Part shown: positions 3,720 to 38,400 of the stretch, piece after piece
Numbering within the stretch: the first letter of the stretch is position 1
Layout of the letters: every line of letters starts with the position of its first letter
From: Octopus vulgaris
Lineage: Eukaryota
Reading direction: 5' to 3'
Length of the DNA stretch: 64,000 bases
Assembly (NCBI GenBank): GCA_951406725.2
Contig: OX597815.1
Location: 195,424,001 to 195,488,000, forward strand
Notes under the pieces: model-generated
What the model was told of the DNA's origin: nothing
What the model saw: only the letters and a program-made list of their open reading frames with translations
The model's database searches: none
Position numbers and translations under genes: made by a program

Positions 3720-4600
3720 TTACTATAGGCACAAAGCCTCGCATTTTAGTGGGGGATAGTTGATTACATCGACCCCAGTACTTGACTGGGTATACTCCGA
3801 TACGATGAAAAGCAAAATTGACCTCGGCCGAGTGCGTAACTGGTACTTATTTAATCGACCCCGAAAGGATGAAAGGCAAAGTTGACCTCGGCGGAATTTG
3901 AGCTCAGAACGTAACAGCTGACGAAATACCTATTTCTTTACTACCCCCAAGGGGCTAAACAAAGAGAGGACAAACAAGGACAGACAAACGGAATCAAGTC
4001 GATTACATCGACCTCCGTGCGTAACTGGTACTTATTTAATCGACCCTTAAAAGATGAAAGGCAAAGTTGACCTCGGCGGAATTTGAACTCAAAACGTAGC
4101 GGCAGGCGAATTACCGCAAAGCATTTCGCCCGGCATGCTAACGATTCTGCAAGCTCGCCGCTTTTCTCACAGACGAAATAATACCTATTTCTTTACTACC
4201 CACAAGGGGCTAAACACAGAAGGGACAAACAATGACAGACAAACGGATTAAGTCGATTATATCGACCCCAGTGCGTAACTGGTACTTAATTTATCGACCC
4301 CGAAAGGATGAAAGGCATTGTCGAACTTGGCGGAATTTGAACTCAGAAAGTAAAGGCACACGAAATACCTATTTCTTTATTACCCACAAGGGGCTAAACA
4401 CAGAGGGGCAAACAAGGACAGACATAGGTATTAAGTCGATTACATTGACCCCAGTGCGTAACTGGTACTTAATTTATCGACCCCGAAAGGATGAAAGGCA
4501 AAGTCGACCTCGGCGGAATTTGAACTCAGAACGTAACGCAGACGAAATACCGCTATGCACTTCGTCCGACGTGCTAACGATTCTGCCTGCTCGCCGCGTT
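3720..4600 (-). mobile_element. Cluster/tandem array of a tRNA-like SINE with a conserved central domain
   Basis: Repeated ~180-bp units with GTCGACTTTGCCTTTCATCCTTTCGGGGTCGATAAATTAAGTACC (resembles the Meta/Nin-type central domain); junctions read AAAGAAATAG|GTATTTCGT. Confidence 0.85.
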
Positions 4601-25090: not shown

Positions 25091-25266
25091 CGTTTAAATA
25101 TTTGTTGTGCAAGATTTTTTATGTGAAGTCGTGTGTTGAAACAGATATTGTTATATTTCGGAATGGTCATATTGCCAGTTTAGCCAATAAAAACACACGC
25201 ACTATATATTTGGTGTTATTTTGCTTCAGTGATATTTATTTTTTACATTAATCTTAATCTTATTTC

Positions 25267-25311
25267 GGCCAAAGTTCTTTCGTCACACTCCTGTGACCGC
25301 ATCAGTGGTCC
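25267..25311 (-). ncRNA. Mirror copy of the PLE pseudo-LTR hammerhead-like motif
   Basis: Exact reverse complement of 30853-30897, within the inverted arm. Confidence 0.6.
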
Positions 25312-25830
25312 TTTGTTTTCTTCTCACTTACTTGTGTCTCTCCTTACTAACCGTCAGCCATTTTGTATTTCTATTGTATGTCTTCATTTGCGCATGCTTA
25401 TATCTCTATGTGCGTCTATGTTTATTTAGTGTGTGTGGGGGGGATGCCTGTAATATTTGTATCTTCTGGTTATATACATTCTTGTAATTTGTATTTTGTT
25501 TTTGTTGTTGTTGCTTTTGTTCTAATTTTATTCATGTGTTTACATCCACCCATTATTATCATTACATATGCTTGTATGTATGTATAACAACAATATTAGT
25601 AATAATAATAATAAATCTAATCGAGAAAAAAAAAAAAAAAAAAGAATATACATATACATATATATATATACATATACATATACATACATATATATATATA
25701 TATATACATATATACACACATATATACACATATACATATACATATATATACACATATACATATATATAGATATTCATTTCTATTTCTTTAATTACCTGTG
25801 TATTTATTATGTTTGCAGGATCCACTATTG

Positions 25831-27078
25831 TCATATGTTGTGGTGTGCGCTATTGCTCCATTCTAGTTTTCTATTCAGGCTAGGTTTATTTTCTATTATA
25901 TGTGTAGCTTCTGTAATTTGTCTAATTGTTGCATCTGTTCTATGTGTGGACAATATCTTAATCTCTATGTTATTGATTGATCCCCCGTGTTCTTGTTCGG
26001 CGTGTTGGTACAGAATCGATGAGCTTTTACCTTCCTTGAGTTGTCTCCAATGTTCATTCACCCGCTCACCAATGCTTCTTGCAGTTTCCCCTACGTATGT
26101 TACTGTCTTGTTACTGCATCGTCCCTCTATACATCTTATACTATAGACCACATTTCTGGCTTTACAGTTCGTTTGTGGGCTAAATCTACATACAGTGCAA
26201 TAGTTATCCGTACAGAGAGTTCTACTAAAAGGATAGGTTCTACCAATTATAGATCTGATAGGGTTGCCTGGCTTTTCAACAACCTTAATTCTTAGTTTAA
26301 GTTTATCTAGGGTCCTTCTAAAGCGGTACGCTAGTTCACCTCCAGGGGTGGTGTCAACGAACATGACACTCTGGTATTTATGGCTATCATACCAAGAGTT
26401 GGCCTTCCTTATTTTCTTTTTTGTCCTTTCTATAGTGTTCCATGACTTGTTCCTATAGAGTGGGCAAATCCCATTCCTATCATTACATAATATATTATCA
26501 AATTTCTTCATGGCTCCTTTGTATACTCTGATCCTTTCTTTATGGCTGTAACCTGAGAACTGCATGCGGTGAATGAAATACTGTATGTGTCTCTTTAATT
26601 CTGTAGGCTCGCACATGCGTGACACATTTCTCATTATTCTGACGAGGTCTGCCATCAAAATATTGAATTTGGCATTGCCCGCAATGGCTGAGTTCCGGTG
26701 GATCAGGTATTTTGAGGCCATAGGTTTTGCATAGTATGAATGAAGGATTTGGGTTTTATTTTTCACAATTTCTAGCCAGAGTTCAGTGTCTAGTACTGGT
26801 AGTCTATGGTTGGGGTGTTTAGTGGGGTAGTTTATTGTGACCTTAATACTCTGGTGGATGGAGTTAGCTATTTGCTGGATGCTCTCCATAGTATTAGTTT
26901 CTATTACTATATCAACAGTACTTTCTTGTGGGGGTGCCTTTACTACTATATTGATATCATCAACATAGCGAGAGTACATGTTTACGAGTATGGATTTCTG
27001 CAGTAGGCATTCTTTAAGCCTTCTGTCCCACCATACCATGAAGAGGTTGGCCACATCACCAGCGATACTAACACCGAT
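25831..27078 (-). pseudogene. Inverted duplicate of the 3' part of the PLE ORF (RT motif C, thumb, GIY-YIG)
   Basis: The 407-aa minus-strand ORF matches the C-terminus of the + ORF except TINYP vs TIDYP. It starts mid-RT at the junction, so it is not an independent gene. Confidence 0.92.
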
Positions 27079-27087
27079 ACTAACACC

Positions 27088-30000
27088 ATCAAATGCCTGT
27101 CCGAGATTGAAAAGTCGTTCACAAAAATACGTTGGAATTTAAATAGATACTATGACAACAACACTTGCGACAACAACAACAACGCGAAAAACACTAACCG
27201 CAGCAACAACAACACAAACAATAATGACCGCAACAATAACAACCGTAGCAACAAAAGCAACACGAACCCTAACAGCGGCAACAACAACAACAACAACACG
27301 AACCCTAACAGCGACAACAACAATAACAATAGAAAAAATGTATGCATAGACACAAACAATAGATACAAAAACAAAAACACAAACAGAGAGAGAAAAATCG
27401 TATACAACAGCAACAACAACAACAATTATAGGGAGAACCGACACACAAACACACACACAGATAGCCATAGTCACAAAAACACGAATAAAAGTTGTGTCAT
27501 AGGGGTCACGATGGAGAATAAAGTTGAATGCAACAGGATCCTTGGACAGGGAGTCAGCGGACTTGAAACAGATAACAATACTCATAGGAACAAAAATAAC
27601 GACCGCAACAGGGGGATTGACAGGGACCAACAGACAGACATAAAACCCAACACTAATATAAACAACACATATACCAGAAACAGGAACAATGAATATATCA
27701 CTAGCGATGATAGTAATAATGGCAATGGTAGGAATAAAGGTAATAACAATAATAGTGGTAGTAGTAGTGGTGATGGTAACAGTAGAAGTAGTAATGAGGA
27801 TAGTAGTGATAGTTGTGGTGGTAATAGGAATACTAGTAGTAGTAGTAGTAGTGGTAATGGTGATAATAATAATAGGAAGGCTGATGTTGGAAACAGTAAC
27901 GATAATGAAGATAACCCTAGAGAGACCATTGACATGTATACCCATCCCTTTGACACTCAATTCTTCAACGTATGCGACAAAACTTACTGCATGAACCGAA
28001 TTTATCCAACAACATTACCCTTCAACAAAAGGGTATACATCCCAAGACGTACTAATGACCACATGGAAGCACAGTTCACTATAGCTAGGACCAAACTTAG
28101 ACAGATTTTAGGTTTATACATTAAGAGACAGAGACAGAATAAGACAGATGCCCAACAACTAGGGATTAAACCTGCATGTGGCCTACAGAAGCTCATTCAG
28201 CGCACGAGGAACGGAGAGGTGATATGCCTTCCCACGGATAAGTCCGGCAGGATGTCAATAGACAGCTTACCGAACTACATCCAGGCAATGCAACCTCATA
28301 TCGCCAATACAAAAGTAACAACTGTACAGGCGCATGAGGAGAGAGAAAAGGTCCTCAATGCCCACATGATGATGTGGACAATTGTTCTGGGACCTCAGAA
28401 ACGTACTGCAAAGAATTTCCAAGCCTGGAACAATGATATCCCGGCACTGTATGGACTTCGCAAGGACCATAAAGGTTTTACTGACCCTATAGCAGGACCA
28501 CCAACAAGACCAGTCTGTGGAGCGAATATCGCTAGCAATTACAGAATCTCCTACTTCCTCTCAATGATCATACGCCCTATAATCAGGATGTCACCTGATG
28601 TATGTGACAGCACAGAAGATCTCCTAAGCAGGATCAGTGACTGTAACAAAACTTGTGACTTGACAGGATGTATAGTAGGTAGCATGGATGTGGTATCCCT
28701 ATACCCATCGATTGACGTAGATTTTGCAGTGGAGAAGTGCGTGGAGATGATCAACGAGAGCCAGGTGGAGTTCTGTAATGTCGACACAGAAGAACTGGGC
28801 CTCCTACTTAGACTGACATATAATAGTGAATACTTAGATAAACATAATCTTAGTAGTTTCTGCCCCAGTAGATGTTTAAGAGGTAGACCGCCTACAATTA
28901 CTTCTATGGCTAGGAAGACACATATAGAAAGATGGCGCGGATGGACCAGAGCCATACGGAGCCCCGCAAGTGTCCATCAGGTAAAGAAAATGATCGCACA
29001 TGCACTAGGAGCTAGTATAAGAGTTACCCTAAAAGGCCACACATTTAAATTTAATAATAAAATATATGCCCAGGACGAGGGGGCAGCCATCGGTGTTAGT
29101 ATCGCTGGTGATGTGGCCAACCTCTTCATGGTATGGTGGGACAGAAGGCTTAAAGAATGCCTACTGCAGAAATCCATACTCGTAAACATGTACTCTCGCT
29201 ATGTTGATGATATCAATATAGTAGTAAAGGCACCCCCACAAGAAAGTACTGTTGATATAGTAATAGAAACTAATACTATGGAGAGCATCCAGCAAATAGC
29301 TAACTCCATCCACCAGAGTATTAAGGTCACAATAGACTACCCCACTAAACACCCCAACCATAGACTACCAGTACTAGACACTGAACTCTGGCTAGAAATT
29401 GTGAAAAATAAAACCCAAATCCTTCATTCATACTATGCAAAACCTATGGCCTCAAAATACCTGATCCACCGGAACTCAGCCATTGCGGGCAATGCCAAAT
29501 TCAATATTTTGATGGCAGACCTCGTCAGAATAATGAGAAATGTGTCACGCATGTGCGAGCCTACAGAATTAAAGAGACACATACAGTATTTCATTCACCG
29601 CATGCAGTTCTCAGGTTACAGCCATAAAGAAAGGATCAGAGTATACAAAGGAGCCATGAAGAAATTTGATAATATATTATGTAATGATAGGAATGGGATT
29701 TGCCCACTCTATAGGAACAAGTCATGGAACACTATAGAAAGGACAAAAAAGAAAATAAGGAAGGCCAACTCTTGGTATGATAGCCATAAATACCAGAGTG
29801 TCATGTTCGTTGACACCACCCCTGGAGGTGAACTAGCGTACCGCTTTAGAAGGACCCTAGATAAACTTAAACTAAGAATTAAGGTTGTTGAAAAGCCAGG
29901 CAACCCTATCAGATCTATAATTGGTAGAACCTATCCTTTTAGTAGAACTCTCTGTACGGATAACTATTGCACTGTATGTAGATTTAGCCCACAAACGAAC

Positions 30001-30336
30001 TGTAAAGCCAGAAATGTGGTCTATAGTATAAGATGTATAGAGGGACGATGCAGTAACAAGACAGTAACATACGTAGGGGAAACTGCAAGAAGCATTGGTG
30101 AGCGGGTGAATGAACATTGGAGACAACTCAAGGAAGGTAAAAGCTCATCGATTCTGTACCAACACGCCGAACAAGAACACGGGGGATCAATCAATAACAT
30201 AGAGATTAAGATATTGTCCACACATAGAACAGATGCAACAATTAGACAAATTACAGAAGCTACACATATAATAGAAAATAAACCTAGCCTGAATAGAAAA
30301 CTAGAATGGAGCAATAGCGCACACCACAACATATGA
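27088..30336 (+). CDS. Penelope-like element polyprotein (RT + C-terminal GIY-YIG endonuclease), 5'-truncated at the inversion junction
   Basis: 941-aa ORF from ATG 27511; the frame stays stop-free back to 27088 ([16 protein letters not shown]...). Motifs: PTDKSGR (DKG-like), [24 protein letters not shown] (motif A), QDEGAAIG (B'), RYVDDI (C), LPVLD, YAKP, Cys linker CTDNYCTVC, endonuclease [15 protein letters not shown]...R..EH..H...H and E..HI...PSLN. Confidence 0.95.
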
Positions 30337-30454
30337 CAATAGTGGATCCTGCAAACATAATAAATACACAGGTAATTAAAGAAATAGAAATGAATATCTA
30401 TATATATGTATATGTGTATATGTATGTATATGTATATGTGTATATATGTGTGTA

Positions 30455-30495
<41 letters not shown>

Positions 30496-30852
30496 GTATG
30501 TATATATATGTATATGTATATTCTTTTTTTTTTTTTTTCTCGATTAGATTTATTATTATTATTACTAATATTGTTGTTATACATACATACAAGCATATGT
30601 AATGATAATAATGGGTGGATGTAAACACATGAATAAAATTAGAACAAAAGCAACAACAACAAAAACAAAATACAAATTACAAGAATGTATATAACCAGAA
30701 GATACAAATATTACAGGCATCCCCCCCACACACACTAAATAAACATAGACACACATAGAGATATAAGCATGCGCAAATGAAGACATACAATAGAAATACA
30801 AAATGGCTGACGGTTAGTAAGGAGAGACACAAGTAAGTGAGAAGAAAACAAA

Positions 30853-30897
30853 GGACCACTGATGCGGTCACAGGAGTGTGACGAAAGAACTTTGGCC
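30853..30897 (+). ncRNA. Variant minimal hammerhead ribozyme in the PLE pseudo-LTR
   Basis: GGACCA-CTGATGC-G-GTCACA(GGAG)TGTGAC-GAAA-GAAC-TT-TGGCC: perfect 6-bp stem II, GAAA, very short stem III, stem I CCA/TGG. The core deviates at A9. Confidence 0.6.
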
Positions 30898-31011
30898 GAA
30901 ATAAGATTAAGATTAATGTAAAAAATAAATATCACTGAAGCAAAATAACACCAAATATATAGTGCGTGTGTTTTTATTGGCTAAACTGGCAATATGACCA
31001 TTCCGAAATAT

Positions 31012-31049
<38 letters not shown>

Positions 31050-37349: not shown

Positions 37350-38400
37350 CAAGGTTCATCTACTTTTCTCTTATTTATTTAATGCCCGCAAAGGGCCAAA
37401 TACAGAGGGAACAAACGAGGACAGACAAACGAATTAAGTCGATTACATCGACCCCAGTGCTTAACTAGTACTTATTTAATCGACCCCGAAAGGATGAAAG
37501 GCAAAGTCGACCTCGGCGGAATTTGAACTCTGAACGTAGCGACACACGAAATACCTATTTCTTTACTACCCACAAGGGCCTAAATACAGAGGGGACAAAC
37601 AAGGACAGACAGACGGATTAAGTGGATTATATCGACCCCAGTGCGTAAATCATACATATTTAATCGACCTCGAAAGGATGAAAGGCAAAGTCAACCTCGG
37701 CGGAATTTGAACTCAGAACGTAGCGGCAGACGAAATACCTATTTCTCTTTCGTTACTACCCACAAGGGGCTAAACACAGACAGGACAAATAAGGACAGAC
37801 AAACGGATTAAGTCGATTACATTGACCCCGGTGTGTAACTGGTATTTAATTTATCGACCCCGAAAGGATGAAAGGCAAAGTCGACCTTGCCGGAATTTGA
37901 ACTCAGAACCTAACAGCAGACGAGGTACCTATTTCTTTACTACCCACAAGGGTCTAAACACAGATGGGACAAACAAGGACAGACAAACGGATTAAGTGGA
38001 TTATATTATTTAATCGACCTCGAAAGGATAAAATACAAAGTCGACCTCGGCGGAATTTGAACTCAGAACGTAGCGGCAGACGCAATCCAGCTACGCATTT
38101 CGCCCGGCATGCTAACGTTTCTGCCAGCTCGACGCCTTTGCTTACAACACCTATGTTTCCCAAGCGGTCGCCCAACTAAGTACTAACTAGGCTCGACGTT
38201 GCTTAATTTCGGTGATCGGTGATCGGACGAGAGTCGTTGCTTTCGACGTGATATGGCCGTTTTTCGCGTGAAGCTTAGGTATTTCGCTCATAAACACACA
38301 CATCGCCCGGTCTGTGATTCGAAGACGCAATTCCCCGACCGCGTGTCCACTGCTCTAACCACTAGGCCATGTGCCTCCACAAGGTTCATCTACTTTTCTC
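37350..38400 (-). mobile_element. Chimeric retroposon: tRNA-SINE head + 5S rRNA + SINE tetramer, 21-bp TSD
   Basis: Identical CAAGGTTCATCTACTTTTCTC at 37350-37370 and 38380-38400. All three modules are on the minus strand, with an A-rich 3' end at 37371. Confidence 0.85.
38140..38260 (-). pseudogene. 5S rRNA retro-pseudogene
   Basis: Minus strand ACGGCCATATCACGTCGAAAGCAACGACTCTCGTCCGATCACC[GATCACC]GAAATTAAGCAACGTCGAGCCTAGTTAGTACTTAGTTGGGCGACCGCTTGGGAAACATAGGTGTTGTAAGC. This matches metazoan 5S from about nt 5 to the 3' end, with a 7-bp duplication. Confidence 0.9.

What the first reader, a model, noticed from the sequence alone, without database searches (positions are those of the whole stretch)
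37350..38400. One TSD-flanked insertion fusing three Pol III RNAs: tRNA-SINE head, 5S rRNA and a SINE tetramer
Seen, minus strand 5' to 3': ~115 nt of SINE head A (38379-38265), near-complete 5S rRNA (38260-38140) whose 3' end abuts the 5' end of a central-domain SINE, then three more units and an A-rich end. An identical 21-bp TSD bounds the whole. Established: non-LTR RTs can jump from a template 5' end to another RNA's 3' end, and SINE3 elements derive from 5S. Inference: serial end-to-end template jumps in one TPRT event, or a nascent tRNA-5S hybrid SINE.
Basis: partly seen in the sequence, partly recalled or inferred. Interest (0 to 1): 0.72.

Follow-up and report, generated by a model that had tools for sequence, protein, structure and literature searches.

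The report
Three-RNA chimera from double template jump
Inside one exact 21-base insertion footprint sit the front piece of one short mobile element (SINE), a decayed 5S ribosomal RNA copy and four units of a second SINE; it is a single-copy relic, likely made when a borrowed reverse transcriptase jumped twice between RNAs, and similar joins recur throughout this genome, though it is not a spreading family.

Summary
Observation confirmed: TSD 37350-37370 = 38380-38400, SINE-A head, 5S (Rfam 62.5 bits), four SINE-B units. The triple is single-copy, but each joint type recurs independently. 83 of 96 sampled 5S copies run, in sense, into a SINE start or LINE/SINE tail within 28 nt (controls 26/600; antisense 0/96). 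Linkers vary, and TSDs enclose the whole 5S+B unit (11/22) rather than B alone (1/22). The A head breaks 2-3 nt past a predicted closed terminal stem, followed by oligo(A) and a B head, at seven further events; one is a second triple (A head / 5.8S fragment / B, 15-bp TSD). Best reading: serial template jumps by a LINE reverse transcriptase from a SINE 5' end onto trimmed, A-tailed RNA ends. Not a hybrid SINE family. The B tetramer is a native array form and may partly have grown later. Tripartite chimeras are published (mouse B2-U6-L1, Magnaporthe), and this scan already noted two-part 5S, U6, 5.8S and pre-tRNA chimeras elsewhere in this genome. New here: the recurrent fixed-length SINE-head acceptor and two triples of one design. 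The partner LINE of B was not found; no empty allele was seen.

The parts
38380..38400 (-). Target-site duplication, 5' copy (21 bp; its last base is also base 1 of the SINE-A head)
38265..38380 (-). SINE-A (subfamily A2) head, nt 1-116, ending 3 nt past a predicted 6-bp terminal stem; the remaining ~190 nt of A are absent
   Evidence: 10 of 116 differ from subfamily consensus
38261..38264 (-). Junction 1 linker, four A (inferred oligo(A) tail or untemplated bases)
   Evidence: same kind of linker at seven other events
38139..38260 (-). 5S rRNA retrocopy, about nt 5 to the mature 3' end, decayed, with a 7-bp tandem duplication at 38224-38211; no T-rich trailer
37930..38138 (-). Junction 2 (1-2 A) and SINE-B unit 1 from its first base, with a 24-nt internal deletion; internal-type tail
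37740..37929 (-). SINE-B unit 2 (headless, different subtype from units 1 and 3)
37556..37739 (-). SINE-B unit 3 (headless; shares two rare variants with unit 1)
37371..37555 (-). SINE-B unit 4 (headless) with terminal-type tail and A-rich end; inferred priming end
37350..37370 (-). Target-site duplication, 3' copy (21 bp)

Best explanation
This is a single-copy, three-part retro-insertion (SINE-A head, 5S rRNA copy, SINE-B array) inside one 21-bp duplication, likely written by a LINE reverse transcriptase that jumped templates twice. Inferred order: (1) the enzyme nicked the target and primed on the A-rich 3' end of a SINE-B RNA; (2) on reaching the SINE's 5' end it jumped to the 3' end of a mature 5S rRNA; (3) near the 5S 5' end it jumped again, to the oligo(A)-tailed 3' end of a ~115-nt SINE-A head RNA that had been trimmed back to its closing stem; (4) second-strand repair made the TSD. 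Shown: the anatomy, the uniqueness of this triple, the recurrence and variability of both joint types, and whole-unit TSDs at sister loci. Inferred: the enzyme, the jumps, and the existence of the trimmed, A-tailed head RNA. The number of B units present at insertion is left open.
For: Junction 2 type: 83 of 96 position-ordered 5S copies (of 232 exact matches) have a retroelement start within 28 nt downstream in sense; controls 26 of 600 random flank stretches and 0 of 96 antisense. 76 of 83 partners begin within the first 3 nt of their reference; none of 93 non-cluster copies shares the upstream flank of the three clustered putative genes; 12 of 83 are clearly 5'-truncated. 22 exact 5S-to-B joints occur genome-wide with mostly different linkers, and one 5S variant pairs with different B subtypes. 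A TSD encloses 5S+B in 11 of 22 scorable loci (window included) against 1 of 22 for B alone, at the 95th percentile of a shuffled-pair null; 6 vs 0 at the 99th. Junction 1 type: of 39 distinct places where an A-run follows the A head within 30 nt (hand count of 53 matches), 9 break 2-3 nt after the stem; 8 of these (7 events) continue into a B head. Five of the seven events show a 13-16-bp TSD around head+B with no rest of A. The stem G1-C113 is predicted with pair probabilities of 0.99-1.0. L277 is a second triple: A head, A6, 25 nt of 5.8S rRNA, A/G-rich run, B variant, 15-bp TSD. Simple B insertions with a scored TSD did not show such A-runs at their 5' joint. U6 behaves alike: 16 of 30 by script, 6 more by eye. 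Precedent: mouse B2-U6-L1 triples with 15- and 16-bp TSDs (PMC2104539 section 8); template jumping by R2 RT needs untemplated addition (PMC8857657, abstract).
Against: All six modules are 5.5-9% diverged from their families while the TSD is perfect; the chance of that is 0.06 at 6.5% and 0.024 at 8.5% divergence, which fits re-retroposition of an already aged composite. L266 shows a B dimer nested in an intact A with a TSD ending at the same position as the breaks, so a nested route to this junction exists. The LINE that mobilises B was not found among 30 RT loci. Half of the 5S-B loci gave no significant TSD. B units 1 and 3 share two rare variants and unit 2 is of another subtype, so the array was probably reworked or extended.
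Confidence: 0.68

Rival explanations
1. Two steps: a 5S-B chimera (one jump) first inserted into a genomic SINE-A copy at nt ~115; a read-through RNA from the A promoter was later retroposed from the B tail, giving a fresh TSD.
For: L266 is a B dimer nested in A with a 19-20-bp TSD ending at this position. B primes internally in longer RNAs: 13 of 25 flank-ending internal-type tails are followed by GGT, like the next unit. It explains a perfect TSD around aged modules.
Against: No source locus: one match for the junction pattern, best non-self hit 88% over only the 5S+B part. B's TSD lengths vary from about 10 to 21 bp, so independent nested insertions should not all end within 1 nt, yet 7 events plus this one do, each with an A-run. 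Unit 1 carries a TTTT run at 38033-38030, a possible Pol III stop, though it may postdate insertion.
Confidence: 0.15
2. Nested insertion then deletion in place: SINE A made the TSD, 5S-B inserted inside it, and a later deletion removed the 3' part of A exactly up to the TSD.
For: Nesting of these chimeras in older SINEs is common (L007, L023, L090, L227). Both SINE tails are A-rich, which could guide a deletion.
Against: Needs the same precise deletion at five further TSD-bounded loci. The TSD joins the B tail with the overlap seen in other B insertions. Both ends are already as here in organism C, whose flanks differ by 2.3-2.6%.
Confidence: 0.06
3. RNA ligation before reverse transcription (RtcB-type, as for human U6/L1) joined the three RNAs.
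For: Shown for U6/L1 (PMC6789731, passages); end-to-end joints look the same in DNA.
Against: That route needs a 2',3'-cyclic phosphate and a 5'-OH, and a 5'-triphosphate partner was not ligated (PMC6789731, passages). Here partners mostly begin at the SINE's first bases (76 of 83), expected from general knowledge to be triphosphorylated, and the upstream RNAs end in trailers, T-runs or A-runs.
Confidence: 0.07
4. A nascent composite tRNA-5S SINE family amplified from a master gene.
For: The unit has a Pol III-type head and a tail that the B machinery recognises. A few 5S-B loci share trailers.
Against: One copy of junction 1; linkers 77 distinct of 83 when counted within partner class; 5S variants and B subtypes are unlinked; the 5S carries 9 substitutions and a duplication that no sampled locus shares as a set.
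Confidence: 0.04

Closest known systems
Tripartite chimeric retrogenes: mouse B2 SINE-U6-L1 (two, 15- and 16-bp TSD) and Magnaporthe WEIRD-Mg-SINE-MGL (14-bp TSD); PMC2104539, abstract and section 8 read
   Same: Three RNA-derived parts in sense, one TSD, single copy; a SINE, then a small Pol III RNA, then the primed retroelement; explained by a double template switch.
   Different: Here the primed template is a SINE array copied to its first base, not a 5'-truncated LINE; the middle part is rRNA; the 5' part is a 3'-trimmed SINE head whose break point recurs at seven other events.
U6/L2, U6/Mon-1 (platypus) and U6/RTE, U6/AnolisSINE2 (anole) chimeras; PMC4476161, section 10 and passages read
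   Same: In genomes with stringent LINEs, small-RNA retrocopies occur almost only fused to a LINE or SINE 3' part; the small RNA is often 5'-truncated; several LINE clades do it.
   Different: Shown there for U6 only and for tens of copies; here 5S (83 of 96 sampled), U6, 5.8S, pre-tRNA and a SINE's own head are acceptors, and whole SINEs are frequent donors.
Human 5S/L1 chimeras; PMC11838501, passages read
   Same: 5S rRNA and a retroelement in one TSD-bounded insertion, each a separate event.
   Different: Human cases are described as frequently antisense and truncated (twin priming); here sense, 3'-complete 5S, 0 of 96 antisense.
5S-derived SINE3 and hybrid families such as HaSE3; PMC3272025 passages, SINEBase definitions PMC3531059 passages
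   Same: 5S sequence in front of a tRNA-SINE body; such families are thought to start from this kind of switch.
   Different: No amplification: one copy, no shared junction, decayed 5S.

Membership tests
Template-switch chimeric retrogenes (bi- and tripartite) | Parts from different RNAs directly fused in the same orientation | tested here: met
Template-switch chimeric retrogenes (bi- and tripartite) | One TSD around the whole, none around the separate modules | tested here: met
   21-bp TSD; no repeat of the linker or 5S end after the tail. Repeats between B units cannot be told from internal TSDs.
Template-switch chimeric retrogenes (bi- and tripartite) | 3' part is a LINE or a LINE-mobilised element with its tail | tested here: inconclusive
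   B has a simple-repeat tail and makes TSDs, but its partner LINE was not found in 30 RT loci. The D1 tail does belong to an RT-coding LINE.
Template-switch chimeric retrogenes (bi- and tripartite) | Each copy is an independent event (junctions vary) | tested here: met
Template-switch chimeric retrogenes (bi- and tripartite) | Whole unit absent as one block from the orthologous empty site | tested here: inconclusive
   Both ends present in organisms A and C, the B end in organism B; no skipping joint among those shown, and contigs break in the repeats
Template-switch chimeric retrogenes (bi- and tripartite) | Joint made by RT during insertion rather than by RNA ligation | not testable with these tools
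   needs biochemistry; argued indirectly from 5' and 3' end types
SINE family (SINEBase definition), 5S-derived or composite | At least 100 interspersed copies | tested here: not met
   1 match for junction 1; 22 exact 5S-B joints, not from one master
SINE family (SINEBase definition), 5S-derived or composite | At least 60% identity to tRNA, 5S or 7SL over 60 nt | tested here: met
   5S part; tRNA likeness of the heads not tested beyond ARAGORN, which found none
SINE family (SINEBase definition), 5S-derived or composite | Diagnostic changes shared among copies and not with the cellular gene | tested here: not met
SINE family (SINEBase definition), 5S-derived or composite | Transcribed by Pol III as one unit | not testable with these tools
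   no RNA holder listed, which is no evidence either way
RtcB-ligated U6/L1-type chimeras | Upstream RNA ends in cyclic phosphate, downstream RNA begins with 5'-OH | not testable with these tools
   end chemistry is invisible in DNA; junction positions argue against

The most novel reading that the evidence does not exclude
In this genome a LINE reverse transcriptase routinely concatenates RNA-decay intermediates end to end, and one abundant SINE sheds a discrete ~115-nt, stem-closed, oligo(A)-tailed head RNA that is captured again and again as a portable Pol III promoter module. The genome would thus hold a fossil record of small-RNA 3' ends (trailers, oligo(U), mixed A/G tails) and a live example of how SINE heads are swapped, with machine-specific preference: U-ended acceptors for the CR1-like tail group, A-tailed acceptors for SINE B.
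Probability: 0.4. Interest if true: 0.62.

Novelty: new variant of a known kind. Interest (0 to 1): 0.45.

Why it matters
The locus itself is a dead, single-copy relic. Its value is as a clean in vivo record of serial template jumping, known from few TSD-bounded genomic cases, and as the entry to a genome-wide set of such joints. The recurring stem-end, A-tailed SINE head gives a concrete and testable route for the head and module exchange long invoked in SINE evolution. Practically, most dispersed 5S and U6 hits in this genome are chimeric retrocopies rather than genes, which matters for annotation and copy-number estimates.

Tried and rejected
Amplified composite family: rejected. Site-specific insertion behind genomic 5S genes: rejected, as no chimeric copy shares the genes' upstream flank (best score 31 vs 54-82 among genes) and TSDs enclose the 5S. 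Apparent other triples with a B or C piece upstream of 5S (L002/L046, L007, L009, L044, L062, L090, L227) were set aside as insertions into older SINEs. Partner LINE of B or A: 30 top RT loci gave two main LINE groups and no shared tail. U2 as a Pol II control: the 30 best hits were genes with shared flanks, none fused; uninformative because no retrocopy was reached. Expression: no RNA holder listed. Empty allele: none seen; contigs fragment inside the repeats and most joints were not shown. Recent tandem duplication as origin of the tetramer: rejected, units are 6-18% apart, and adjacent units elsewhere are as far apart as units of different loci (0.091 vs 0.087). Rfam on the L277 middle piece alone found nothing; it was identified through two near matches lying in 5.8S copies. 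Look-up of earlier findings by sequence found nothing.

Full report
Setting. The window is G000:C2:195424001-195488000 in a 2.8-Gb, 227-contig genome. That the animal is an octopus is my recall of its repeats plus earlier scan notes; no call here names it. The labels A, B, C, D are mine; I did not match them to published family names.

Observation. On the minus strand the insert reads: 21-bp TSD (38400-38380), SINE-A head to 38265, AAAA, 5S rRNA from about nt 5 (38260) to its mature end (38139; RF00001 62.5 bits, E 9.6e-11), one or two A, SINE B from its first base (38137), three further headless B units (from 37929, 37739, 37555), an A-rich end, and the second TSD copy (37370-37350). Full SINE A is about 305 nt, so about 190 nt are missing and do not follow downstream.

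Is the triple repeated? A degenerate pattern for A head + 0-15 nt + 5S start matches once in the genome, at this locus. A DNA search across both junctions scored the 40 best of 1658 candidates; none but the locus itself covered junction 1 beyond 9 nt, and the best other hit was 88% over the 5S+B part. So there is no sibling and no visible source locus.

Junction 2 is a recurrent type. An exact 21-nt 5S 3'-end pattern has 232 matches. I took the first 96 listed places, all of them (plus six loci). 83 of 96 have a retroelement start within 28 nt downstream in sense: SINE C head 36, tail D1 21, tail D2 11, B head 9, A head 3, others 3. Controls: 26 of 600 random flank stretches, 0 of 96 antisense. 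Of the 13 others, three are clustered putative genes on C4 with shared upstream flanks; no other copy shares that flank. 76 of 83 partners start within 3 nt of their reference start; 12 of 83 5S copies are clearly 5'-truncated; linkers are 0-22 nt and mostly differ, many being 5S 3' trailers with T-runs. The census is biased to little-diverged copies by its exact pattern. D2 is the tail of SINE C. D1 (1851 exact matches) is the 3' end of a LINE with an RVT_1 domain; of 30 D1 copies 8 extend into the LINE and 22 start at one point, some behind U6 or tRNA-like pieces with T-rich trailers (tRNA labels by eye). U6 shows the same: 16 of the 30 best hits by script, 6 more by eye, 5 of the remaining 8 in a tandem gene cluster. 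For 5S-to-B there are 22 exact joints; one 5S variant is paired with different B subtypes. In 22 scorable of 24 5S-B loci, a repeat encloses 5S+B in 11 (window included) and B alone in 1 at the 95th percentile of 462 mismatched pairs; 6 and 0 at the 99th. These are independent chimeras in which the 5S arrived together with the SINE.

Junction 1 is also a recurrent type. A search for A head followed by B head gave three loci: two with a TSD around head+B and no rest of A, and one (L266) with B nested in an intact A, its TSD ending at the same position. A wider pattern (A head motif, then an A5 run within 30 nt) gave 53 matches at 39 distinct places by my count; 9 break 2-3 nt after the motif, and 8 of the rest are at +11, where the native sequence is itself A-rich. 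I examined 21 of the 39, including one of each pair or single among the 9: eight places (seven events; two are a local duplication) are A2 head + A-run + B head, and one is an A1 head joined to another element. Five of the seven have 13-16-bp TSDs around the whole; two lack the B 3' end and cannot be scored. Break points (GC or GCG), linkers and B variants differ, so they look independent. The A2 consensus head folds with its first six bases paired to 108-113 at probability 0.99-1.0, so the break lies just past a closed stem, where 3' trimming would be expected to stop (inference). L277 has a third piece between head and B: 25 nt that match 5.8S rRNA copies with two mismatches, followed by an A/G-rich run. 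It is a second triple of the same design, with a 15-bp TSD. A-runs of four or more occur in 5 of 12 linkers before A or B heads against 2 of 71 before other partners (Fisher p = 0.0005; small numbers, test chosen after seeing the data).

The B array. Dimers and longer arrays are common. All 32 tails that continue into another unit are of the internal type and none of 25 terminal-type tails continues; the window follows this rule. B also inserts into older B copies at the unit-boundary motif (L227, L002, L009), so arrays could grow in place. Window units differ by 6-18%; units 1 and 3 share two rare variants and unit 2 is another subtype. Whether four units were copied at once is unresolved.

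Age and the awkward point. 5S differs at 9 of 96 non-CpG sites, the A head at 10 of 116 (consensus of 14 copies including this one), and B units privately at 5.5-7.7% against a median of 3.3%. A perfect 21-bp TSD then has a probability of 0.02-0.06. Contigs from public runs run from both flanks into the element in organisms A and C (11 of 476 and 16 of 609 letters different in C) and into the B end in organism B; no empty allele was shown and no contig spans the element.

Mechanism. Best reading (0.68): target-primed reverse transcription on a B RNA, a jump from its 5' end to mature 5S rRNA, and a second jump to a trimmed, A-tailed SINE-A head RNA. Rivals: nested insertion then read-through re-retroposition (0.15), RNA ligation (0.07), nested insertion then deletion (0.06), amplified family (0.04). 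The enzyme is unidentified for B.

What is known. PMC2104539 (abstract, section 8): TSD-flanked triples in Magnaporthe and mouse (B2-U6-L1). PMC4476161 (section 10, passages): platypus U6 copies are alone or fused to L2 or Mon-1, and anole has U6 fused to L1, L2, RTE and a SINE. PMC11838501 (passages): human 5S/L1 chimeras are frequently antisense and truncated. PMC6789731 (passages): RtcB ligation and its end requirements. PMC8857657 (abstract): jumping needs untemplated addition. PMC6007223 (abstract): TSD starts correlate with tail repeats in RTE-related elements. PMC3531059, PMC3272025, PMC4758252, PMC5804259, PMC9115989: passages only. Searches listed no paper on such chimeras in cephalopods or on a trimmed SINE head as recurrent acceptor; the library lacks most subscription papers, and I opened no supplements, whose chimera tables could hold similar cases. 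Earlier notes of this scan report two-part chimeras with 5S, U6, 5.8S and pre-tRNA in this and another genome; they agree with my census, were read after it, and are not independent support.

Verdict. Real, single-copy, a tripartite template-switch chimera by every test that could be run; not a SINE family. New variant of a known kind, for the recurrent fixed-length SINE-head acceptor and the repeated SINE-rRNA-SINE design. Interest 0.45.

Noticed in passing
window 25145-31019: A 1109-codon open frame (27007-30333, +) with RT-like and GIY-YIG-like motifs (recalled; Pfam found nothing) and a 1934-bp inverted duplication at 99.5% identity: looks like a very young Penelope-like element.
   Followed up: partly
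L277 (G000:C1:192567636-192570660, minus): Second triple chimera: SINE-A head, A6, 25-nt 5.8S rRNA fragment, A/G-rich run, SINE-B variant, 15-bp TSD, nested in an older repeat.
   Followed up: yes
L303 1459-1650: Full-length 5.8S rRNA copy joined to a SINE-B head (Rfam 78.2 bits).
   Followed up: partly
L182, L189, L192, L201, L211: Among 30 random copies of LINE tail D1, one follows U6 and up to four follow tRNA-like or other pieces with T-rich trailers, one looking like an intron-containing pre-tRNA (by eye).
   Followed up: partly
L227, L002, L009, L090, L280: SINE B and its chimeras insert into older B copies at two motifs that match the B tail, a route to self-growing tandem arrays.
   Followed up: partly
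L062, L074: A partial 5S 5' end is duplicated in front of a full 5S copy inside the insertion.
   Followed up: no
L110 about 1500-1700: A 5S-D1 chimera abuts a SINE-A head in opposite orientation, head to head.
   Followed up: no
L037, L085: Two 5S copies sit at the same point of a palindromic repeat; in L085 the downstream sequence is the inverted repeat of the upstream one.
   Followed up: no
L020, L079, L080 (C4 near 35.25 Mb); L130-L134 (C1 near 139.42 Mb): Clusters of putative true 5S genes and U6 genes with shared flanks.
   Followed up: partly
L159-L181 and many listed places: A young LINE family with many 949-codon open frames, 94-99% identical, ending in (ATT)n; its tail matches none of the SINEs studied here.
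   Followed up: no
window 3828-4600: Two SINE-B arrays joined tail to head on the minus strand.
   Followed up: no
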